Origin: Azolla caroliniana | Taxonomy: Eukaryota > Plantae > Polypodiophyta | DNA length: 18,755 nt | NCBI GenBank assembly: GCA_043228905.1 | Contig: JBHGNT010000632.1 | Location: 1-18,755 of the forward strand | Reading direction: 5' to 3' | Shown here: piece by piece, positions 4,301-18,060 of the stretch | How the letters are laid out: every line of letters starts with the position of its first letter | Numbering within the stretch: position 1 is the first letter of the stretch | Program-made: the position numbers and the translations under genes | Notes under the pieces: model-generated | What the model saw: only the letters and a program-made list of their open reading frames with translations | Told to the model about the DNA's origin: nothing | Databases searched by the model: none

Positions 4301-7300
4301 CTGCACAGCAATATCTCTTGTTTTCTAAATCATGTCAAAGTGCGGATCATATGACAGGCATTGGAGATTCTGTGTAAACTGGGTCGGGAAATCAATGTAC
4401 AACCAAACATTGTATTTTGTGGAATATTCTTGAGTGGTTGTTCACAAGCTGGAAGCGTGTCCCATGCGGAGAAATGCTTGCGATTTATCAATGAGAAAGG
4501 CATGAAAGAAGATGAGCTGATATATCTTGAACTGATGAAGGTGAGTCTTTTTTTCTATACAGTCATTAGCACATTTTTCAATGAAGTTTCTATATTCTTG
4601 CATCATGGGATGCAAGGATGAAAAGTGTTATAGGATCCGAGGGAGTTTTTTGCAAGCGTTAACCTTCCTTTAGTACAGCTTGCTGGGAAGAGGAAGGATT
4701 TGCCAGCTGTTCATAAAGCATGGTCCTTGATGGTTAAAACATGTAGACCATCAATGCCATGCTTGGAATCCTATTCCACGGCAGTTAAAGCTTTGTGTCG
4801 GGCAGGCTCCTTCCCTGAAGCTCTCGTTGCCTTGCGAGAAATGGTTCAATTGGTCTCAACTAATGATAAATTTACTCTGCTCTCACAAAAACTAGTGAAG
4901 ATTAAAAGTCTCTATGATGATGAGGATATGGCACATTTAGAAGAGATTGCAAGGACCAGAGGTACTTTCGCAAAGAAGGACGAAAACCAAATTGTGGATG
5001 ATTCTACTAAAGAAATGAATGTACAACAGCCTGAGATTAAAGAATCTGAACTCCAGAAGAACTTTCCTTTGTCGGCCAGTAATACAGACACAGATAACAC
5101 CAGTAAAGTGGAAAGTAAAGATATGAAAACTTCTAGCAATGATATGAAAGTGCAAGAATCAAAGGCTAAGATTTGTGACAAACAGAAAAACATTTATTTT
5201 GGAAGTGTTGACATGCAAAATGTGGACTTCCTACGCTCTCAAGCTACAGGGGGCTCGCCTTATGATCAAATACTTGCCTGGACAAGACTTGCAATGATGA
5301 ACTTGCAGCAGTCAGATTCAACAAGTCTTCCTGAGAACTTGCAATCTATGGGAAGTCCTATATCTGGTTTTTTTTCAGATAAATATGCTAAAGTCAAGGA
5401 TATTTTACGGGAGACATTCAATGCAATAATAAATACTGCTGTTAATAGAGGAGATCTGAATTCAGCAGAGGTCATGTTTAGTCAGGTTTATTTACCATAC
5501 CTTATTTTTATTTAAGCTTGTTTGTGATATCTCTTTGTATGTTCGCTGAATTTAATGTTGTAATGGTGTAGATGCGTACCGTGGATTTAAAGCCTGACAT
5601 ATATAGCTACAATGCAATGTTAAGAGCTGTAGTGAGAGGAAGAGGGCTTGACCAAGGATTTGTAGTGGTAAGGTCAATAAGCCACCATTTTCTTATTTCT
5701 CCTCCCAATTTTGCACCGTTCCTAGAAAAAGAAAGGAAATAAAAAACCACCCTTTGTTTTATTTGTAATGTTCCATGTGGCTGTGTTCTTTTTAAATGGC
5801 TTTATCAGTTGTAAATTTTCTGGATATTTTGCTGATGATGAGTATGGTTATGCTGACTCCTGAGTCAGTTAGTAATTGAGGTCACCGAAATTTAAATCAA
5901 AACAGAAATCGAAGATTAATTTTCAGTTAAACATAATATGGTAATATATATTCTCGGTAGAAAGCTATCTTAAACAGATCTTGCATTCCCAAAAATGTAG
6001 TTTCAAAATTTCCAACTGGGGCATGCTCATTGTTAGTCTTGTGTATATTCTAACAATGAAAATAGAGCAGCTTTTGTATGAAAGGTGTGCAAGAGATCCT
6101 TCAAAACATTACCTAGAGTTATATACTAATTCAGTCAATGTTTTTTATTCATTGATCTGACAATGTACAGGTTAAAACTATGGAAAGTGATGGTGTAGAT
6201 CCAGATACTAAAACATATAACGCTATTATAGAGGGGTTCTGTTCTAATTTGGAGTTGGATAAAGCAGAAGCTCTTCTTGAACGCATGCTGACTTGTGACA
6301 ATAAGCAAAAGCCCTCCACTGTATCTTTCAACACAATTTTGAAGGCGTGTGGTGAGTTGGTATGTCATGAAGTTTATCTTGCACAAGGCATTGATTTTAA
6401 ATTGTCAAGATCTGCTAGTTTGACTTCTCATCAATCAGAAATTTAATCTTAATGCTGTTTATCTTTTTGATCCTTCTTTCAGGGCGACCTAATAAGGGCA
6501 TTACGTGTTTTGTCAAAAATGGTCAAAGCAAATGTTACACCTGATAGATGTACGATCTTGTACTTATTATCTGCATTTGGCAGAGTGAATTATCCTTACG
6601 AAAGGGGGACGGAAGAATCACAGAATGAACTTTCACAAAGAATTTCTGCTATTGAAGCTTACATGGAATCTGCAAAAATGCCACACAACTTCCAAACTTT
6701 TAACGCTGTGGTAATTCAGTCAAATCAATTCACTCAGCAATCTATATGATTTTCCTGCCCATGTTAGCATTCTACTTCCATATGCTTTTGAAACATTGAC
6801 TTCTAATCATCATCTGCCATGTCAGAATTACATAATTGAGAAAACTCACAGATAGTTCAAAAGCCCATTTTGAATTTTTAAACATTAACCAGTTAGGAGA
6901 AGATCAGAAAACGGTATAAGAAGGTATTCAATGAACCTTATAAGTTTTTACCATGAAGAGTTACTGTAGTCACTGAATGATTAGCCATACTTTTCTGTGT
7001 GATCCGTTTACACAAATTGTCATGAGGAATGGATGTTTGAGTTATATAATTGAGAAAATTCACAGACAGTCCAAAAGCCTATTTTGTAATTATAAACATT
7101 AACCAGTAGGGAGAAGACCACGAAAAGGTGTAAGAAGGTATTCAGGGAACCCTCATCAGGTTTTACCATGAAGAGTTACTTTAGTCACTGAAAGGTTAGG
7201 CATCCTTTTCTGTGTGATCCTTTTCCACAAATTATCATAAGGAATAGTGTTAGGTGGTTTTTGAAATCAATCTCTTAAAGACCGTGTATGCTGTTGGTCT

Positions 7301-9589
7301 TAGCATCCTTTAAACTACTGGAGTTGACCATTCTAATGGTGGTAGAATCAAATTATTATTATTTATGAGAGGCTTGTTCAGAGAGCTAATTGTTCTAAGG
7401 CTGTTGGTGCCTATTTGGGAATTCTCCAGGATCTCAACCTACTAACAAGACAGAAGACAAACCAAATATACATTCACACCATAATAGTTAATGTTTGGCC
7501 TCTCCCTAATGAGCAGACTATGTGGATTTAAAAGAGTATTCACGATATTACGTTGAAATATATCCAGAATTTTAAAGATGGCTTCAAGGATGTTTGCAAT
7601 AAAACCCTACCATGATGATTGACTAGTTGGAGATACTCTTGCAGCTGCACTTTAGCAAACAAATTCTATAAGAGTGATCAAAGCTTTGTAGAGCCATCAA
7701 TTGGGAATATCACCATTGGTGAATCATTGATTGGGATGTTACCATTCAAGACTATTCAAATGAGCAACTTTTCTGGAGATGTATTAATACCCACACATAC
7801 AAGCGAAGGATAAATCTGCCAAATATTTTGAAACTAATCTACATTTATTCTGTTTCAACATTTTCTGGTTATATGCAGTTTAGAAGAGAGTGTAAGGAGC
7901 AGTAAAGTTTAGATTCTTTTTCATAAAAAAGACTCAAAGAATTCTTTGTTGCTGCTGCTTCTAGATGGTGGCATTAAGTGCAGAAGGAATGGTTGATGCA
8001 GTAATTCATCGCCTACATCTTGCGGAGGGCTGTGTGGGTGGTGATGGTCTTCCCATCCTAACTGCTATTACTTTCAACACAGCGATACATGCATGTAATC
8101 AAGCTAAACAGGTGAGGAAATATCAATCTTTCTGTGAACAATGCCTTTCTCTTTATTTCTCTCTCTTCACACGTTGCTGAATGTAGTGGGCTGCAGCAAA
8201 GGAAGTTTTCAGGAGAATGAAAGATTTAGGTTTAAAGCCAAATACAGAGACATATAATGTCTTCATTGATAGTTGTGCTGCGCAGAAGAAACTTGGTGAT
8301 GCGTTTCAGTACTTAGAAAGAATGCAAGAGGAGGAATTGAAGCCAACATTATATACCTACAACTCACTCATCAAGGTAACATTTAGCTAAAGCATTATTG
8401 TTTGAGTAGTTTCTGAAAAAGCAAGATTGCAAATGGTCTTACTCGATGTGTAGATGGATTTGCTTTAATAAAGCCTTTGTGAAATTTTTATGTTATATTA
8501 ATGCTGCACTTATATTAATACTTTTCTTCTTTTTCAAGAAAAGGAAAGTTTGAGTAATTTCAAATGATCATTGATTAAAAATTTGAGTTATATGAACTAA
8601 TTTTTTTATATATTGTTTGTAATATTCCTATCCAATAAATATAAGGGGAACGTTCCTTTCTCCCCTCAATTTTCAGACTCTCATAAGTTTTCCATTATGT
8701 GCACTACAACAGTATAAGAATGTTGCATTGATTTTCTTATATCTCAGATTTTCTATTTAGAATCCTTTACATACTTTTAGAGTACTTTATTTTCTAAAGA
8801 AACTGAAAACCTCTGGTGATAGTGAATGGATTCTTTTACTGATATTTCTAACCTTGTTCTTAAAGGTATGCTGCTTTTGTAAGAAGTTGGATGCAGCTGT
8901 GAATCTCTTAAAAGAGATTGAGGAGTCTGGCATGGAACCGACCATTGTCACTTTTATTACTTTACTTTCTGCTGCTGTTCATGAGGTATATGTTCCATAT
9001 TTTAAATCCAAAAAATATCTCGTAAGATATAGCTTCAAGAAAGAAAGCTTAGATTAATGATGGAAAAATCCATCAGAATGCCCATGTGGCATAATTCCGA
9101 GGACAGCAACAAAAACTAATAGCATTTGTGTCAGTGTGTATATATTCAATCCTCTTACATATGTGAAACCTACAGGAGCGCATGGACATGGTCGAGTTCC
9201 TGATCGAGCACATGCATAGAAAGCAAATCCAACCAAACATTACCATTTGTGAACTCATAGTTTCTGCATATCTCAACTGCCATGAGATTGATGATGCAGC
9301 CGAATCATTGGGAGTTTTGAGTACCCGAATGCTTCCAAAAGGCCAACATATACCAGGGAAAATGGAAGATATTCTAAAGCAGATCTGCCTTGAGGATAGC
9401 CTTGAAGTTGAGTCTAGTACAATGGAGTTGTTGAAAGACGCCTTAGTTAATAAGGGATTAGCTTCGCAAGCCCTTTTTGCAGCTCGATTATCAGGTTTTG
9501 GCAATGCTTCTATGGATGTCTGGGATACCAATGAAAGCCCATGGGCGAGGCGGTTGAGGATCCAGTATGACCAAATAGTTTCATACTGA
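1325..9589 (+). CDS. P-class pentatricopeptide repeat (PPR) protein, 12 coding exons, ~904 aa, At1g76280-like
   Basis: Exons 1325-1385, 1877-2049, 3255-3362, 4358-4540, 4679-5485, 5572-5667, 6171-6359, 6483-6710, 7965-8111, 8187-8375, 8866-8985 and 9176-9589 splice at GT..AG into one stop-free frame. Repeated PPR signatures: LKPDIYSYNAML, GVDPDTKTYNAIIEGFC, GLKPNTETYNVFIDSC, ELKPTLYTYNSLIK, GMEPTIVTFITLL. The C-terminal ESPWARRL and overall layout match my recollection of At1g76280; orthology not verified by search. Confidence 0.92.
1439..1470. repeat. (AG)n microsatellite in intron 1
   Basis: agagagag... run directly visible. Confidence 0.9.
1877..2049 (+). CDS. PPR gene exon 2
   Basis: (GTTT)n tract plus TAG acceptor; encodes EAFDQRNHLK...HANGK; donor AAG|GTACTC. 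Confidence 0.85.
3255..3362 (+). CDS. PPR gene exon 3 (not in ORF track)
   Basis: TTGCAG acceptor; encodes VAHSMWTSMKNERISLNTFSIACLLSALCRTGLLDE, a degenerate PPR motif; donor GAG|GTAGGG; 108 nt, phase 0. Confidence 0.88.
4358..4540 (+). CDS. PPR gene exon 4
   Basis: CAG acceptor; encodes ALEILCKL...YLELMK; donor AAG|GTGAGT. Confidence 0.9.
4679..5485 (+). CDS. PPR gene exon 5 (large; includes a low-complexity linker)
   Basis: CAG acceptor; encodes LAGKRKDLPAVHKAW...AEVMFSQ; donor CAG|GTTTAT; 807 nt. Confidence 0.9.
5572..5667 (+). CDS. PPR gene exon 6 (not in ORF track)
   Basis: TAG acceptor; encodes MRTVDLKPDIYSYNAMLRAVVRGRGLDQGFVV; donor GTG|GTAAGG. Confidence 0.9.
6171..6359 (+). CDS. 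PPR gene exon 7
   Basis: CAG acceptor; encodes VKTMESDGVDPD...LKACGEL; donor TTG|GTATGT keeps frame with exon 8. Confidence 0.88.
6483..6710 (+). CDS. PPR gene exon 8
   Basis: Pyrimidine tract plus CAG; encodes GDLIRALRVLSKM...TFNAV; donor GTG|GTAATT. Confidence 0.9.
6828..7245 (+). repeat. Diverged ~214-bp tandem duplication in intron 8
   Basis: ATAATTGAGAAAA starts at 6832 and again at 7046; the copies are colinear through ...CAT(G/A)AGGAAT, ending at 7030 and 7245, with many substitutions. Confidence 0.93.
6830..7420 (-). mobile_element. Ancient LINE reverse-transcriptase relic in intron 8
   Basis: Minus-strand translations in LINE RT order: NSLRTISSLN (cf. NYRPISLLN), IDFK..IPYDNLWKRI (cf. 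VDFKKAFDTIP), FSLLVNVY (cf. LSPLLFNIY). Very degenerate. Confidence 0.45.
7965..8111 (+). CDS. PPR gene exon 9
   Basis: TAG acceptor; encodes MVALSAEG...ACNQAKQ; donor CAG|GTGAGG. Confidence 0.9.
8187..8375 (+). CDS. PPR gene exon 10 (not in ORF track)
   Basis: TAG acceptor; encodes WAAAKEVFRRMKDLGLKPNTETYNVFIDSC...YTYNSLIK; donor AAG|GTAACA. Confidence 0.92.
8866..8985 (+). CDS. PPR gene exon 11
   Basis: AAG acceptor; encodes VCCFCKKLDAAVNLL...AAVHE; donor GAG|GTATAT. Confidence 0.85.
9176..9589 (+). CDS. PPR gene exon 12 (terminal)
   Basis: CAG acceptor; encodes ERMDMVEFL...ESPWARRLRIQYDQIVSY; TGA at 9587-9589. Confidence 0.92.
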   Translation, partial: ERMDMVEFLIEHMHRKQIQPNITICELIVSAYLNCHEIDDAAESLGVLSTRMLPKGQHIPGKMEDILKQICLEDSLEVESSTMELLKDALVNKGLASQALFAARLSGFGNASMDVWDTNESPWARRLRIQYDQIVSY

Positions 9590-10739: not shown

Positions 10740-12582
10740 GGGCATGCAAACTCATAAAGATTGGTATCGCACCTTTTATTGGGATGGATGAGATATAATA
10801 GATGATCGTGCTACTAATTGATGCCGTGCGGCCCATTTGATAGAAAAAACACCTAAGATGATGTTATGGAATTGTAACAACGCACTTTGGGCACATCTTG
10901 GCCGCCTAGAGGACATATTAAAGGTATTAGATATACTTTTCTTGGTAGAAACACACCAAAACCTAAATAGAGGACTCCCACGAGTCGAAGGGTTTCATGG
11001 GGAGTCCTTATTTAGACAAACTTCATGTTGACACATTACCAAAGGATTTGGAGGTGTTGCAATATTGTTTTAGAGAGAGCTATATAATTTGGATAGAAAT
11101 ACTAAGGACGGACCTAAAAGCTTGTTTTATGTGGGTGAAAGTCTTCACTAGCAAGGATTGGGCAGTATTTTTTGCCATTTGTTACTTTCCCTTGAAAGGA
11201 TCCCGTTATAATATGGCTGGAGAGGCGAGATTAGTTGATGAAAGAGTGCCACATGGGCCTTCTCCATATGAACCTTTATCGAATGACATAATCTAATATT
11301 CTTCCTATGGAGAAGTCTTCCATGTAGGAGATTTCAATGCGAGAATCCAATCCTGAAAATGCACAATATTTTAGATGAATATAAACCTAGAAATAGTAAA
11401 TGTCGATCTTTTAGATAGGCACCACACGTAGTCAAAAGTTCAAGGTGCAGACGCCATGAGCTTTGGTCATCATCCGCTTGAACTTGGCAATCAACATCAT
11501 ATAATCATATATAATGGTTTAGCCACAAAATAGATGGTATGATGAAGATTGTAGGGACTCACATAGACAACTAAAAGTATCACAACTTAGTTACTATCAC
11601 CTTAGTACAAGCTCACAAATGTGCAAGATGACATGTCGTAAGAGATGAGCGTGGGAAGCATCCCAATATTGGGAACTCTACCATATGCTCATGAGTAGCG
11701 ATTGCGCCATTGTGTGGAAGAGACTACGGGAACCTAGAGTCAAGACCACAAACACCCATCGAGGATCCCAACACTTGGCACACATATACAGAGAGACTTT
11801 ACCAAGACTAAAACTAGCCACCCATTCCAATGCCTTCTACACCCCGACCTACCATGGGGACACTTTTCACGATCTCTAGGGTCATGATGGTCATAAAGAA
11901 ATTATAATATAAGAAGTCCATGGACCACACAGGATTGCGAGTAGAACACATAATATATGTGCATGAGTACCTAGCACCCTTTCTAATTTTAATCTTCAAT
12001 CGAGCCCTTGTCAAGGGTTTTCCACCATAGTGGCCTATGAACACAATTACCCCCATACATAAAGGAGGGGACCCCATGGACCCAAATACATATAGGACCA
12101 TTATGATAGGCCATACACTTGCTAAATTATATGATGCAATAATGGAAGCAGAGCTTAACGAATATATGGAAACCTTAAATCTTTGAGCACCTGAATAGGA
12201 TGGCTTTAGACGAGCCTTCTCTACTATTGCTTAATTGACCAAACAAAGGCTCGCAAGCAGAAATTATACTGTTGTTTTGTGGACTTTCGCAAAGCCTTTG
12301 ACATAGTCCCTAGAGAGCAGTTGTTTGATAGGCTTAAAAGCTTGAAGATGCAAGATAACATGATTTGGGCCACCTATGCACTATATGAGCTAGTCTTCGA
12401 GTGCATACGATACCCAAGTGGCCTTTCCGATTGCTTCACTAGTTCTATTGGTGTAAAGAAAGGTTGCCCCCTCTCACCGACTCCTTTTGGGATCTACATT
12501 GATGAGATCACGGATTTTATTTCTCGAAAGGGGGGTATATAGGTTCATATCTTGCTTTATGCAGACGACATAATTTTTCTCT
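10740..12582 (+). mobile_element. LINE copy A, decayed: ORF1 tail, AP-endonuclease, RT up to YADD
   Basis: EN motifs MMLWNC, ILFLVETH, VGDFNAR. RT motifs PIHKGGD..NTYRTIMIGHTLAKLY, CCFVDFRKAFDIVPR, GVKKGCPLSPTPFGIYID, ILLYADD (YADD at 12558-12569). Many stops and frameshifts; both ends truncated. Confidence 0.93.
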
Positions 12583-13459
12583 GTAAGTTCCAACTAAAAG
12601 TGACTCCCATATATACATATGTTCCAACTACCTCGATTGGTTTATGAGAGAGGATTAGGTGACATTTACTCCTAATGCGAGACGATGTATGAAAGATAAG
12701 GACTTTAGTTTTCGCTAGATTCATTACCAATCCTCATTATGTGCAAAAGTCATCTAGGGCATTAAGGTGCTTTTGTAGGTCGTGTTCAGACCCCAAGAGC
12801 AAAACTATGTCGTCCACGTAGAGTAAGAAACTAACTTGCATACCCCCAATGGCTACTCCGTTGCTTTTGTGACGAGCAATAAAATCAGTGATCTCATCAA
12901 TGTAGATCCCAAAAAGAGTCGGTGATAGAGGGCAACCTTGTTTTACACCAATGGTGCTGGTGAAGCAATTAGATAGGCCACCCGAGCATCTTACACACCC
13001 AAAGACTTACTCCTATAGGGCATAGATGACTCAGATAATGTTATTTGGTATCTCCAAGCTTTTAAGCCTATCAAATAATCGCTCCCTAGGGAATGTGTCA
13101 AAGGCTTTGCAAAAGTCCACAAAACAACAATATAGTTTCTTCTTGCGAGCCTTCGTTTGGTCAATTAAGCATCGAAGTGTGAAGATATGGTCAATAGTGG
13201 AGAAGGCTTATCTAAAACCAGCATGTGCAGGTGCTCGAATACTTAAGGTTTCCATATAATCGCTGAGATTTGGCTCCATTATTGTACCATTTAATTTAGC
13301 GAGCGTATAATGGTCCTATAATGTATTTGGGTCCCCTCCTTTATGTATAGGGGCCAATGTGGTGGGAAACCCTCGGTGAGGGCGCGATTGAAGATTAGAG
13401 TGAGAAATGGGGCTAGGCACTCTTGAGCATATATGATGTATTCGGCCCCCAATCCTGTG
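12583..13459 (-). mobile_element. LINE copy B, RT portion (decayed)
   Basis: The minus strand encodes CCFVDFCKAFDTFPR, GVKQGCPLSPTLFGIYID, FLLYVDD, NLAKTKVLIF and YVYMGVTFS; it is an inverted homologue of 11930-12582. Confidence 0.93.
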
Positions 13460-13465
13460 TGTCAT

Positions 13466-13536
13466 GATATGGTAAGACTTGAACCCATGACCTTATGCTA
13501 CATGGGTCGAGCTCTTGACCATTAGACCATACCTTG
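13466..13536 (-). promoter_or_regulatory. tRNA-derived Pol III promoter-like cassette (A box + B box), antisense in LTR U3
   Basis: Minus strand: A box TGGTCTAATGG (13529-13519), a 33-nt spacer containing the variable-loop-like AGGTC near its end, and B box GGTTCAAGTC (13485-13476). Acceptor and anticodon stems do not pair well, so it is not a functional tRNA. Confidence 0.7.
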
Positions 13537-13643
13537 TAATACGTAGAATATTATTTTCATTTATGTTTTATTATAGAAAATTGATGTATATTCCAGATTT
13601 CTCTGGAACAATCTAGAAACTTTAGGAGTATTCCTCAAAACAC

Positions 13644-13650
13644 TATAAAA
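13644..13650 (+). promoter_or_regulatory. LTR TATA box
   Basis: CTATAAAAGG consensus 34 nt upstream of the inferred transcript start at 13678. Confidence 0.75.
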
Positions 13651-13880
13651 GGAGGCATAAGGCATTATTTCAAACCTAATCGGTTCAACGCCAATCTTAA
13701 GCCTCCTAACTAATATTGTACATTCTATTCACATAATATATATATTTTCTTATCATTACTCTCTCTCTCTCTCTCCCTCTCACTCACTCTTTCCTTCTCT
13801 CGAGAGTTCTTCACCTCTCTTAGTACTAATACTTCTTTTAGTACTAATTCCTTCTCTGTCTTAGTACTGTTCCTTACAGT

Positions 13881-13891
13881 TTGAACCGATT
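13881..13891 (+). other. Self-priming primer binding site
   Basis: TTGAACCGATT, 2 nt after the LTR end, is the exact reverse complement of AATCGGTTCAA at 13678-13688. There is no TGG-starting tRNA PBS. Confidence 0.85.
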
Positions 13892-13972
13892 TCTTCTCGT
13901 TCTTCCTTCCATATCTTCCTTTCCTCCTCTTCCTTTTATCTTCTTATTAATCCTCTTATCCTCCCTAGTAAA

Positions 13973-15086
13973 ATGGAAACTGTTAACGCTTAGGAATACC
14001 AATCTATTTTCTTGGAGCTCTAGTGCTTAAAAGAGAAATTTGTAGCACTAGAACAAGAAAATCATCGTTTGTTGGGGGATCTTCAACAAATAGCATTGGA
14101 AAAACAACATGGGGAGCTGACGTTACGTGTACAACAACTCGAAGCGACTATCGTATCATTACAACAAGGATCAAGCACTCAAGGGATTCACAAAGAACCC
14201 AAGATCGGTCATCCTGCAAAATTTGATGGGTCGATCATAGTTTAGAGGGTTTTTGAATCTGGTACATTTATTCATATAAATGCATCCTTCTCGATATCCC
14301 ACTGATGTATCATGAGTGGGACTAGTAGGCACTCTCCTTAGTGGCTCATCGTTAGCATGGTTTGCTCCATTGTTGGAAAAGGAATCTCCATTACTAAACA
14401 ATTTTGAAGAATTTATAAGTGGAAATATTGACAGCATAAGGATTGCAATCAACAAAATCCGGCGATTACGCCAAGGTGATCGTCTAGCCTTCACATACGC
14501 TGCAGATTTTCGCCTACTTGCTACTGATATCCCGTGGGATGATCACACCTTGATGGAGCAATTTCGTTATGGTTTACTCAACGATGTCAAGGATTTACTC
14601 TTGACCTTCCCCAAAGAGCCAAAGTCATTAATAGAAGCAATAAGTCGCGTGGTGAGATGCGACAACCGCCTCTTCGAACGACGTTCAAAATGACAATTTT
14701 AGATTTCGAGGGCAAGATCAGAGCCTGCCTACGCCTCAATGGTAGCAAAACCTTTTTCGAGGGAGTCATATAATGCGCCTCCAGTAAGTACTCCAATTCC
14801 GATGGAAATTAACACCACACATTGTCGTGGACCGCTATCGGAGGAAGAAAAGCAACAACGCCGAGCAAACCGATTATGTCTTTATTGCGGTGGACTAGGG
14901 CATATCGCGGTAAACTGTTCCCATAGGCCAAGAAGGCAGGTAAACCAAATAGTTGCTAGTTCTAATTGTACTAAACCCGAGTCTATTTTAGTAGGGATAT
15001 TTGATAGTCCTAATAGTACTAATAGCCCAAATCTAGTGAACAAATTTGATGTCCTTAGTCAGTTAGAAGAAGAGTTAAACGACTAA
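13973..15086 (+). pseudogene. gag: gag (disrupted): coiled-coil N-terminus, capsid domain, CCHC zinc knuckle
   Basis: ATG at 13973; KEPKIGHPAKFDG; LRQGD...YAADFRLLA...EQFRYGL; CLYCGGLGHIAVNC at 14877-14918; internal TAG/TGA stops and frameshift. Confidence 0.92.
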
Positions 15087-16730
15087 GTCTAGCCAAAATA
15101 GGAGCCGTTTGGTTGGATAGCCCTAGATTTGTGCAACCCATTAGTGGTTTCATTCCCTCTAAGCAAGTTAGCAATGTGTTCGTAGCCCAAGTAACAATTA
15201 GTACTAAAAGTACCCCTCCAGTACATGTCGTAGCACTTCTAGATTTCGGAGCTAATTCTTGCTTCATGGATAGGAACTTTGCCCAAGCTAATCAAATATC
15301 ACTCGAAAAACTCCCGTGTCCAGCCTCTATAGTAGTCATTGATGGTCGTCCCATTACTTCCAGAAATATCATAGAAGAGTGAAAGCCCGTTAATATTGTC
15401 CTAGATAATCTAGCATGTGTAGTATTATTTAATATAATTAGCATCCCAAAACACCCCATTGTTTTAAGATTACCATGGCTCGAATTACATAACCCAGACA
15501 TAGATAAAGTACAAGCCAATACGCTTCTTGACCATCGATCGTATGATTGCCCCATCGATTTACAACCGGGGAAAGAGCCACCATGGGGATCGATCTACAA
15601 TTTGTCACCAATCGAGTTAGAAGTCTTGCGAGCCTATATAGAGGAGAATTTGGAAAATGGTTTCATTTGGCATTCAAAATCTCTAGCTGGCGCACCCATT
15701 TTCTTCGTCAAGAAAAAGGATGGATCACTTTGTCTCGTTGTAGATTATCGGGGAAAGAGCCACCATGGGGACCGATCTACAATTTGTCACCAATCGAGTT
15801 AGAAGTCTTGCGAGCCTATATAGAGGAGAATTTGGAAAATGGTTTCATTTGGCATTCAAAATCTCTAGCTGGCGCACCCATTTTCTTCGTCAAGAAAAAG
15901 GATGGATCACTTTGTCTCGTTGTAGATTATCGGGGAAAGAGCCACCATGGGGACCGATCTACAATTTGTCACCAATCGAGTTAGAAGTCCTACGAGCCTA
16001 TATAGAGGAGAATTTGGAAAATGGTTTCATTTGGCATTCGAAATCTCTAGCTGGCGCACCCATTTTCTTTGTCAAGAAAAAGGATGGATGACTTTGTCTC
16101 GTTTTAGATTACCGTGGCTTGATTAATGTGACAATCAGAAATAGGTATGCACTTCCCCTTATCTCAAGTCTTTTAGAACGGATTAATGGTGCTAGGTTCT
16201 TCACGAAGATCGACTTATGGGGAGCCTATAACCTCATACGGATCCGACCAGGAGATAAATGGAAGACCGCGTTTCGCACCAAATATGGACACTTCGAGTA
16301 TACAGCCATGCCGTTCGGCCTCACTAATGCGCCAACCGTCTTCAAGCACATGACAAATGATATATTCCGAGATCTCTTGGATGTTTGTTTGATCATCTAT
16401 TTGGATGATCTACTGGTTTATTTGAAGACCCAAGAAGAGCATGATTCTCATGTACTGTTAGTACTAAAATGACTTCGAGAACATGGTCTTTATGCAAAGT
16501 TGGGAAAATGTAGTTTTGGGTGCAACTAGGTGGAATTTCTGGGCTATGTCATTTCCTCGGAAGGCATCTCCAAAATTACATTTCAGGACGCTCGTGTGTT
16601 AAATCGACATCAAGCTCGGTGGGCCCACTTCCTCACGCATTTCGACTTCAAAATTACATATCGTTCGGGGAAGCACCAAGGGAAGGCAGATGCATTATCA
16701 CTGCGTTCGTACCTAGCACCGCGTCCTAGC
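15074..16730 (+). pseudogene. pol: pol (disrupted): aspartic protease, RT, RNase H tail; integrase absent
   Basis: VALLDFGANSCFMD protease motif; [37 protein letters not shown] (16398-16409); QARWAHFL...KADALS RNase H C-terminus. Confidence 0.95.
15567..16112 (+). repeat. 3 x 182-bp tandem repeat inside the RT N-terminal region
   Basis: CGGGGAAAGAGCC recurs at 15567, 15749 and 15931. Confidence 0.97.
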
Positions 16731-16900
16731 TACAATTGTACATTTTCCTCACATAATATATATATTTTCTTATCATCACTCACTCACTCTCTCCCTCCCT
16801 CTCACTCACTCTTTCCTTCTCTTGAGAGTTTTTCACCTCTCTTAGTACTAATACTTCTTTTAGTACTAATTCCTTCTCTGTCTTAGTATTGTTCCTGACA
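16721..16900 (+). repeat. 3' LTR remnant (R/U5 part only)
   Basis: Roughly 90% identical by eye to 13701-13878; U3 and the PPT are missing. Confidence 0.9.
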
Positions 16901-18060
16901 CTATGTGGTCCATGGACTTCCTATTATGTATCTCTCTCTGAAATGGTATTGCAACCCCTCTAGACCCTCGAGTAGTGTGTCGACGTGAGGTTTGTCTAAA
17001 GATAGATTCCTAACGAAACCCTTTAACTTGTGGCAGTCCTCTATTTAGACTCTGATGTGTTTTTACTAAGAAAAGTATTTCAGATACCTTCAAAATCTCC
17101 TCTAGACGGCCAGGTTGTGTTCAAAGTGCACCAGTACAATTCCATAAAGTCATCCTAATTTTATTGTCTGTCACATGGGTCACACGCCATCAATTGGCAG
17201 TGCAATCATTTATTACCACTCGTTTATCTCGGTAAAAGGTGCGATGTCCTTCTTTACAATCTTGTATGACTCATGGCATACAAGTATTACGGTGCTCAAT
17301 TTGCATCTTGGTGAGGTCATCATCTAGGTAGATAGGGTCCCCACCTAGTCCTCGAAGAATTGGTGTCTTCTTAAAAAATGTGATTCCAGATTCCAAATCT
17401 TTAAACTAAAGGACTAAAGCTCTCTTTCTAGTAGTGTCACGTTCGACCCTCCAAGTTTTGGTGATTGGTAGGGCCTCTATGTACCCTAACATTTTCCCGA
17501 GTGTTTGTGCATCTTTATTGGGAGATGCCCCTTCCTTGAACCCAATGACACATACATTTAAACGTCGAGCTTGACGCATTTTCTATTCCTCAAGGGTAGT
17601 GTTTACAATATTTTCATCTTTTAGTTCCTTTTTAATGTTACATTTTACTACATCGACCCAACTGGCTTTTGCTAATTCCATGTCACTTTTTTCACCATCT
17701 TCCCTACATGTCTCGGGGTCATTAAGTGTTTCTGAAGTTTGATGTTTTCTATTTTAAGTTTCACGATTTTAGCTATAAGCATGTCTTTTTCTACCCTATC
17801 TTGTTGCTTTTGAGATTCGGTCTGTTTTGACCATTTTTCTATTTTAACTAAATGGTTAAAGACATCTAAGAATTCTTTCTTATAGTTTCTTCTTGTGTTT
17901 CCTTATGGTTTTTAGTTCATTTAGAAGCCATATTGTATTTCAAAAGATAAAAGAAAAGGACGAAAAAGGATGGAAAACTTAGTTCAGCATCGGTGGATGT
18001 CTCGTTCACTTCTTGAGCTCGCGAGACCTCGCGCGCCAAGTAAAAGCACCCACACCGTAG
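16901..18060 (-). mobile_element. LINE copy B, 5' portion (putative 5'UTR, ORF1, start of endonuclease)
   Basis: Resumes exactly where the LINE was broken by the LTR element. RMTLWNC...GSRGVAI is homologous to 10860-11080. ORF1 relic at 17931-17190. The 5' boundary is approximate. Confidence 0.88.
17190..17931 (-). pseudogene. LINE ORF1 relic (coiled coil + RRM + CTD, L1-ORF1p/Transposase_22-like)
   Basis: Manual translation: MASK*...(coiled coil)...RQARRLNVCVIGFKE...RALVL*FKD...IYLDDDLTKMQIEHR...TFYRDKRVVIND..N*; contains premature stops and a frameshift. Confidence 0.8.

What the first reader, a model, noticed from the sequence alone, without database searches (positions are those of the whole stretch)
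13644..13891. tRNA-independent self-priming: 11-nt PBS complementary to the element's own mRNA 5' end
Seen: TTGAACCGATT (13881-13891) just after the LTR is the exact reverse complement of AATCGGTTCAA (13678-13688), which starts 34 nt after the TATA box, where the TSS is expected. No tRNA-type PBS is present. Established: fission-yeast Tf1 primes reverse transcription with the first 11 nt of its own mRNA after RNase H cleavage, and this has been proposed for related chromoviruses. Inference: this plant element used the same mechanism, which fixes the TSS at about 13678.
Basis: partly seen in the sequence, partly recalled or inferred. Interest (0 to 1): 0.75.

Follow-up and report, generated by a model that had tools for sequence, protein, structure and literature searches.

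The report
Self-priming plant retrotransposon with cleavage footprints
This decayed plant jumping gene has a primer-binding site that matches the predicted start of its own RNA instead of a tRNA, a trick known from yeast and already predicted for this group, and faulty copies elsewhere in the genome break off just past that matching stretch, which likely records the RNA being cut there to make the primer.

Summary
Observation confirmed: 13881-13891 is the reverse complement of 13678-13688, 2 nt after a 419-bp LTR (13460-13878) of a decayed Ty3/gypsy chromovirus (Tcn1-like). Correction: the family duplex is 12 bp (13677-13688 with 13881-13892); this copy has T for A at 13677, so the predicted start is 13677. 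The match is kept while the sequence changes across three LTR families in this genome (AAATYGGTTCAA, AATTCGAATCAA, AAGGAGATCAA), always 32-33 nt after TATA. Three genomic footprints fit Tf1-type self-priming: (1) bases just after the PBS are hypervariable; (2) 57 of 60 examined copies picked for a templated extension continue from the PBS into inverted U3; (3) their truncated R-U5 pieces start at R+11 to +20 in 15 independent cases and never at +1 to +10, as expected if the first 12 nt are cut off. No transcription start was mapped; no cleavage was assayed. Self-priming is already predicted in print for 83% of plant Tcn1 elements (PMC6317226), and this scan noted it before in other moss genomes. 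Known kind; the footprints are the added value.

The parts
13455..13459 (+). left target-site duplication CTGTG
   Evidence: the element sits in a minus-strand LINE remnant whose empty site is seen in a second LINE copy in the window (I9) and in X1 contigs
13460..13878 (+). 5' LTR, 419 bp, TGTCA...T(T/G)ACA
   Evidence: homology to other copies starts at TGTCA and ends at TGACA
13468..13530 (-). A-box/B-box-like stretch in U3, antisense (resemblance by eye; side observation)
   Evidence: no tRNA call by ARAGORN or Rfam
13644..13650 (+). TATA box
   Evidence: 33 nt before the primer start in 75 of 85 family A copies
13669..13676 (+). partial PBS copy at the end of U3 that can hairpin onto the primer (weakened in this copy by A at 13672)
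   Evidence: 5-bp core in family A, 12 bp in family C, absent in family B
13677..13688 (+). predicted self-primer = first 12 nt of R (11 match in this copy)
13689..13696 (+). conserved C(A/G)CCAGTC after the primer; predicted second duplex with the LTR end (GTC/GAC), broken in this copy
13881..13892 (+). primer-binding site, 12 nt, 2 nt after the LTR
13893..13896 (+). hypervariable junction behind the PBS (predicted 3' end of plus-strand strong-stop DNA)
   Evidence: 10-15 alleles per leader subfamily
13973..15086 (+). gag remains (stops and frameshifts)
   Evidence: Retrotrans_gag E 6.5e-7, zinc knuckle E 0.004
15059..16726 (+). pol remains: protease, RT, part of RNase H; 182-bp unit triplicated at 15567-16112; integrase and PPT missing
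16721..16900 (+). 3' LTR piece, R+25 to the end of U5 only; 164 of 178 aligned bases identical to the 5' LTR
16901..16905 (+). right target-site duplication CTATG (4 of 5 match)

Best explanation
This is a dead copy of a Tcn1-like Ty3/gypsy chromovirus whose primer-binding site is complementary to the first 12 nt of its R region, and the family likely primes reverse transcription as Tf1 does, with the RNA's 5' end pairing to the PBS and likely being cut off after nt 12 to serve as primer. Shown by sequence: the 12-bp match, its position 33 nt after TATA, its compensatory change across families, the hypervariable junction, and the breakpoint edge at about R+13. Inferred: transcription starts at 13677; the cut is made by the element's RNase H (by analogy to Tf1, recalled); the primer stays on the minus strand and is copied into the PBS, with cap-derived or untemplated bases added at its end.
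For: Covariation: families A, B and C have different primers, each with its own matching PBS 2 nt after TGACA and 32-33 nt after TATA (85, 28 and 30 copies; every position pairs in 74-85 of 85, 23-28 of 28, 26-30 of 30). In a fresh position-ordered sample, position +5 is T:A in 41, C:G in 13 and T:G in 1 of 55 intact LTRs; family C shows G:C in 26 and A:T in 4 of 30 at +6. Pairing is 72-81 of 81 at +1..+12 and falls to 13 of 81 at -1 and 0 of 81 at +13. The junction behind the PBS has 10, 12 and 15 alleles in subfamilies of 18, 16 and 34 copies (commonest allele 19-28%), against 72-100% for 4-nt U5 and PBS windows; Tf1 RT adds untemplated bases and about half of Tf1 cDNA keeps a full PBS copy at its 3' end (PMC11042837, passages). 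PBS joined in register to inverted U3: 27 of 30 examined in A, 30 of 30 in B; one has a perfect 5-bp TSD (L111); the same joint is in a contig of run X2. Breakpoints of R-U5 pieces in these 60 loci: 18 loci (15 independent) at +11..+20, none at -9..+10 (binomial p 3e-5); outside that set, +12 and +14 in family C (11-nt primer) and about +13 in A. The central duplex is in the MFE fold of 75 of 85, 22 of 28, 29 of 30 copies; window z -6.5. Full-length relatives carry a chromodomain.
Against: No transcription start or cleavage was measured. The families are only three or four independent lineages, and copies within them are related, so the Fisher p overstates the case; the C:G to T:A change at +5 sits in a CpG and could arise on each side separately. 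The loci were picked with patterns that include parts of the PBS, which inflates PBS conservation. The breakpoint set was picked for the inverted-U3 joint, which may disfavour pieces that still carry their own primer; one fragment starts at -10 (L256) and one outside the set aligned from +9 (L314, by eye +13). The third duplex of the Tf1 'pretzel' (3' of the PBS) was not found in the folds shown. Two-U3-ended copies were also noted for tRNA-primed elements in other genomes (unchecked), so that joint alone is not specific. Family B's junction is much less variable than A's (C in 18 of 19).
Confidence: 0.9

Rival explanations
1. A host tRNA fragment ending in the T loop primes the element, and the match in the LTR is incidental.
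For: The family A primer contains GGTTCAA, and tRNA-like genes in this genome have ATCGGTTCAA or ATTGGTTCAA in the T arm (10 of 12 nt; L251, L252, L254, L255).
Against: The PBS does not start with TGG, so no mature 3' end fits. These tRNAs match 10 nt, the LTR 12. The primers of families B and C are not T-arm sequences yet keep the LTR match. Best match among 16 fetched tRNA genes was 9 nt, always in the T arm (only 63 of about 58,700 candidates were scored, so the tRNA set is incomplete). It does not explain the breakpoint edge.
Confidence: 0.03
2. The duplex is real and selected but structural (packaging, translation or strand transfer); the RNA is not cut at nt 12 and priming uses something else, such as an uncut 3' end or a nicked second RNA.
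For: Complementarity and covariation alone cannot show cleavage; no biochemical data for any plant element were found.
Against: Sharp ends of pairing at +1 and +12, a hypervariable junction exactly opposite +1, and R-U5 pieces that start at +11 or later all point to a primer with these two ends; no other primer site lies next to the LTR.
Confidence: 0.06
3. Chance inverted repeat.
For: None beyond the AT-rich context.
Against: 8 of 20000 shuffles; kept in three families with different sequences.
Confidence: 0.01

Closest known systems
Plant Tcn1-clade chromoviruses (REXdb; Neumann et al. 2019, PMC6317226; passages and supplementary table row read)
   Same: Chromodomain, 5-bp TSD, about 5.65 kb (their range 5466-9444), separate gag and pol frames, no tRNA PBS, self-primer in the 5' LTR (predicted for 83% of 1500 elements by a match of 10 bp or more).
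   Different: In the passages read, their prediction rests on the complementary match alone; here covariation, junction variability and breakpoint position are added. No named Tcn1 reference was available for a tree.
Tf1/Tf2 of Schizosaccharomyces pombe and the Tf1/sushi group (Tj1, Tosmo1-3; PMC4600332, PMC5341516, bioRxiv 2022.12.06.519325, PMC11042837, passages read; Levin's original papers not held, recalled)
   Same: Primer at the start of R, PBS just after the LTR, a second duplex between the sequence after the primer and the LTR end, PBS copied to the plus-strand 3' end with extra bases.
   Different: 12 nt in families A and B, 11 in C (Tf1: 11, recalled); third duplex of the pretzel not evident; mechanism shown by experiment only for Tf1.
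SM-Tcn1 of Selaginella (Novikova et al. 2010, PMC2864245, passages)
   Same: Tcn1-type architecture, LTR of similar size (440 bp), T-rich leader.
   Different: The authors found evidence for neither tRNA priming nor self-priming there.
TAR-lineage Ty1/copia elements (Houba, Osr-1; PMC6317226 passages)
   Same: Plant elements predicted to self-prime.
   Different: Other superfamily.

Membership tests
Ty3/gypsy chromovirus | gag-PR-RT-RH-IN order with C-terminal chromodomain | tested here: met
   Window copy has gag, PR, RT but has lost IN; a full-length relative, 90-94% identical in pol, has RT, RH, IN, SH3_Tf2-1 and Chromo, E 7e-15
Ty3/gypsy chromovirus | TG...CA LTRs, 5-bp TSD, PPT | tested here: met
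   TSD in 3 of 4 full-length relatives, PPT in 4 of 4; window TSD 4 of 5, PPT deleted
Tcn1 clade / Tf1-sushi group | RT falls with Tcn1 and fungal/vertebrate elements, not with seed-plant clades | tested here: inconclusive
   RT is 69% identical to a Cunninghamella protein, 57-66% to frog proteins, 50-56% to seed-plant proteins; it lies outside the well-supported seed-plant plus Closterium branch, but the backbone is unresolved and no named Tcn1 or Tf1 sequence was in the tree
Tcn1 clade / Tf1-sushi group | chromodomain with aromatic cage | tested here: met
   Y...W..Y present in P0121; cage positions recalled from HP1
Tf1-type self-priming | PBS complementary to the start of R, not to a tRNA 3' end | tested here: met
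Tf1-type self-priming | primer begins at the mapped transcription start | not testable with these tools
   no raw RNA reads available; position inferred from TATA spacing and the junction
Tf1-type self-priming | RNA cut at the 3' end of the primer by RT/RNase H | tested here: inconclusive
   indirect support only: breakpoints 15 vs 0 either side of +11; enzyme not tested
Tf1-type self-priming | three-duplex 'pretzel' leader | tested here: inconclusive
   central duplex met; duplex 5' of the PBS is 7-9 bp in family C, about 3-4 bp in B and A (in A it competes with a U5 hairpin); duplex 3' of the PBS not seen in the folds shown

The most novel reading that the evidence does not exclude
Failed copies in this genome are a fossil record of self-priming: the template's 5' end lies at R+13, the junction behind the PBS records the cap and untemplated bases, and the frequent two-U3-ended elements (about 2.5% of family A junctions, more in B) arise when the second copy of the primer sequence, at the RNA's 3' U3-R end or in nascent plus-strand DNA, engages the PBS. 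This would give a genome-only test for primer cleavage in any Tf1/sushi, Tcn1 or TAR family, and the first evidence for the cleavage step in a plant.
Probability: 0.55. Interest if true: 0.55.

Novelty: new member of a known kind. Interest (0 to 1): 0.36.

Why it matters
Self-priming has been shown by experiment only for Tf1 and is assigned to other elements, plant Tcn1 included, from a short complementary match. This family adds little as one more member. What is useful is that a repeat-rich genome holds enough faulty copies to read out both ends of the primer without experiments, which turns a prediction into something testable by computation in other lineages.

Tried and rejected
RNA evidence for the start site: no RNA holder listed; contigs of X1 and X2 cannot show starts. 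A first guess that the LTR begins at TGTAATA (13536) was wrong; homology runs up to 13460. A first guess that the element inserts next to a tRNA-like sequence was wrong; that stretch is inside U3. ARAGORN and Rfam call no tRNA in U3. tRNA 3' end or T-loop priming rejected. Family C gave no true fold-back: the single match has 3 templated bases and then unrelated sequence. The idea that a U3 hairpin suppresses fold-back fits C (strong hairpin, none seen) and B (no hairpin, 5 of 30) but not the A variant with the longer hairpin, which supplies 30 of the 46 A matches; left open. Literature searches for the footprints and for plant self-priming found no description of a breakpoint edge or hypervariable junction in self-priming elements; the library lacks most subscription papers, including Butler et al. 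2001. Left out of counts: fold-back-selected loci L101-L130, and these plus L256-L286; 19 junctions without a leader anchor from the allele counts; three poorly aligned loci (L113, L120, L126) and eight with a whole or nearly whole LTR say nothing on breakpoints.

Full report
Observation. They belong to a decayed Ty3/gypsy element at 13460-16900. The 5' LTR is 13460-13878: 29 of 30 top copies in the genome align from about TGTCA (one has an internal deletion), and they end at TGACA. The element is flanked by CTGTG and CTATG and sits in a minus-strand LINE remnant. It holds broken gag, protease and RT. Integrase, PPT and U3 of the 3' LTR are gone; RNase H sequence joins R+25 through a 6-nt near-homology. 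Full-length relatives are about 5.65 kb with PPT, 5-bp TSD and a chromodomain that keeps the aromatic residues. RT is closest among named proteins to fungal and frog elements and lies outside the seed-plant branch, with an unresolved backbone. The host is a plant (PPR gene in the window), likely a non-seed plant (inferred from the clade).

Correction of length. In the family the duplex is 12 bp. Over 81 copies, pairing is 72-81 of 81 at +1 to +12, 13 of 81 at -1 and 0 of 81 at +13. The window copy has T at 13677 but keeps the third T in the PBS; contigs of run X1 show A there throughout. The predicted start is therefore 13677, 33 nt from the first T of TATA in 75 of 85 copies.

Covariation. 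A gag-domain search brought up two more families with different LTRs, sampled further. Family B has AATTCGAATCAA with TTGATTCGAATT; family C has AAGGAGATCAA with TTGATCTCCTT. In all three the PBS lies 2 nt after TGACA, the primer 32-33 nt after TATA, and C(A/G)CCAGTC follows the primer. Within A, 60 junctions taken in genomic order from the list gave 55 intact LTRs: +5 is T:A in 41, C:G in 13, T:G in 1. Within C, +6 is A:T in 4 of 30. These copies are related, so the counts show concordance, not independent events. The central duplex is part of the MFE fold in most copies. A second duplex between GTC after the primer and GAC at the LTR end is 7-9 bp in C and short in A and B; the third duplex described for Tf1 is not seen in the folds shown.

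tRNA alternative. The PBS lacks TGG. Some tRNA-like genes carry 10 of the 12 nt in the T arm, and 16 fetched tRNA genes match at most 9 nt (the tRNA set is incomplete). Families B and C cannot be explained this way.

Footprint 1, the junction. Right behind the PBS, three leader subfamilies of 18, 16 and 34 copies show 10, 12 and 15 alleles, the commonest at 19-28%, while 4-nt windows in U5 and the PBS are 72-100% uniform (two leader windows in one subfamily are also low, 44% and 61%). This is where plus-strand strong-stop DNA would end after copying the primer. For Tf1, about half of the cDNA keeps a full PBS copy at its 3' end and RT adds untemplated bases (PMC11042837, passages). In B and C the first base is mostly C (18 of 19; 29 of 30 rows) although the LTR base at -1 would template G; copying of the cap would give C (recalled). 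In A it is mostly T.

Footprint 2, two-U3-ended copies. 46 places continue from the A PBS with GGTTC, out of 1806 A junctions; 27 of 30 examined go on as inverted U3, mostly to the first base of the LTR, and 3 return to the leader after 5-9 templated bases. In B there are 40 places and 30 of 30 examined are inverted U3. L111 is a whole LTR, PBS and inverted U3 between perfect TCTAC repeats. A contig of run X2 shows the same joint at 13676/13892, which argues against an assembly artefact. The joint shows that PBS and R start pair in register during reverse transcription. Earlier notes of this scan report two-U3-ended copies for tRNA-primed elements too (unchecked), so I give it little weight alone.

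Footprint 3, the breakpoint edge. In most of these 60 loci the LTR piece before the PBS lacks U3. Its start was placed against natural copies: 18 loci, 15 with distinct junctions, start at R+11 to +20; none at -9 to +10; one at -10; 13 at +21 to +60. Starts at +11 and +12 are explained by 1-2 shared bases. If the template ran to the cap, the edge would be at +1; an edge at +13 is what removal of a 12-nt primer predicts (15 vs 0, p 3e-5). Selection for the inverted-U3 joint may bias against pieces that keep their primer, but it would not create the pile-up at the edge. Among 16 primer-less junctions without that joint, three start at the edge (C: +12, +14; A: aligned from +9, by eye +13), and the rest start further in or are diverged whole LTRs. 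The window's own 3' piece (+25) may be of this class or a later deletion.

Mechanism. Likely steps: Pol II starts at 13677; nt 1-12 pair with the PBS; RT/RNase H cuts after nt 12; minus-strand DNA is made from the freed 3' end and stops at +13; the primer stays attached and is copied into the new PBS with extra bases. The pairing and its boundaries are shown by sequence; start site, enzyme and cut are inferred.

What is known. Neumann et al. 2019 state that most plant Tcn1 elements lack a tRNA PBS and are predicted to self-prime (83% of 1500; passages and one supplementary row). Self-priming is the common trait of the Tf1/sushi group (passages). This scan recorded the same layout in other moss genomes. 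My searches found no paper using junction variability or breakpoint position as evidence, but the key older papers are not in the library.

Verdict. Real, correctly read apart from one base, and a new member of a known kind. Interest 0.36, mostly for the footprints.

Noticed in passing
window 13468-13530 (-); also L134, L147, L155: U3 of families A and B and of a further LTR begins with an antisense stretch that looks like tRNA A and B boxes (TGGTCTAATGG ... AGGTCATGGGTTCRAGTC). Rfam and ARAGORN do not call it. It could be a captured Pol III promoter, as 5S is in Cassandra; one paper search and one look-up in earlier notes found no description.
   Followed up: partly
window 13669-13688; family C loci L161-L190: A partial PBS copy at the end of U3 can hairpin onto the primer in U3-containing RNA: 12 bp in family C (-20 kcal/mol), 5 bp in A, none in B. 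It could mask the 3' copy of the primer sequence.
   Followed up: partly
L111 (G000:C4:19608640-19611661): 656-bp insertion made of LTR + PBS + inverted U3 with a perfect 5-bp TSD.
   Followed up: yes
L106, L124, L125; L271, L272: Identical two-U3-ended copies at separate places, so some of these forms were duplicated or amplified.
   Followed up: no
window 15567-16112: 182-bp unit of RT sequence in three near-identical tandem copies (96-100%), next to a deletion in the protease-RT linker.
   Followed up: no
window 10743-13461 and 16901-17268: Two LINE remnants in opposite orientation; the LTR element interrupts the second.
   Followed up: partly
L032, L038, L041, L046, L054: Subfamilies with a tandem duplication of the last 31 or 73 nt of U5, giving two TGACA ends.
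   Followed up: no
family C leaders, L161-L190: The leader behind the PBS is built of variable CCTT/CTTT units that repeat the 3' end of the PBS, as repeated slipped strand transfer could produce.
   Followed up: no
window 4634-9589 (+): Exons of a PPR protein gene; a 214-bp tandem duplication at 6819-7245.
   Followed up: no
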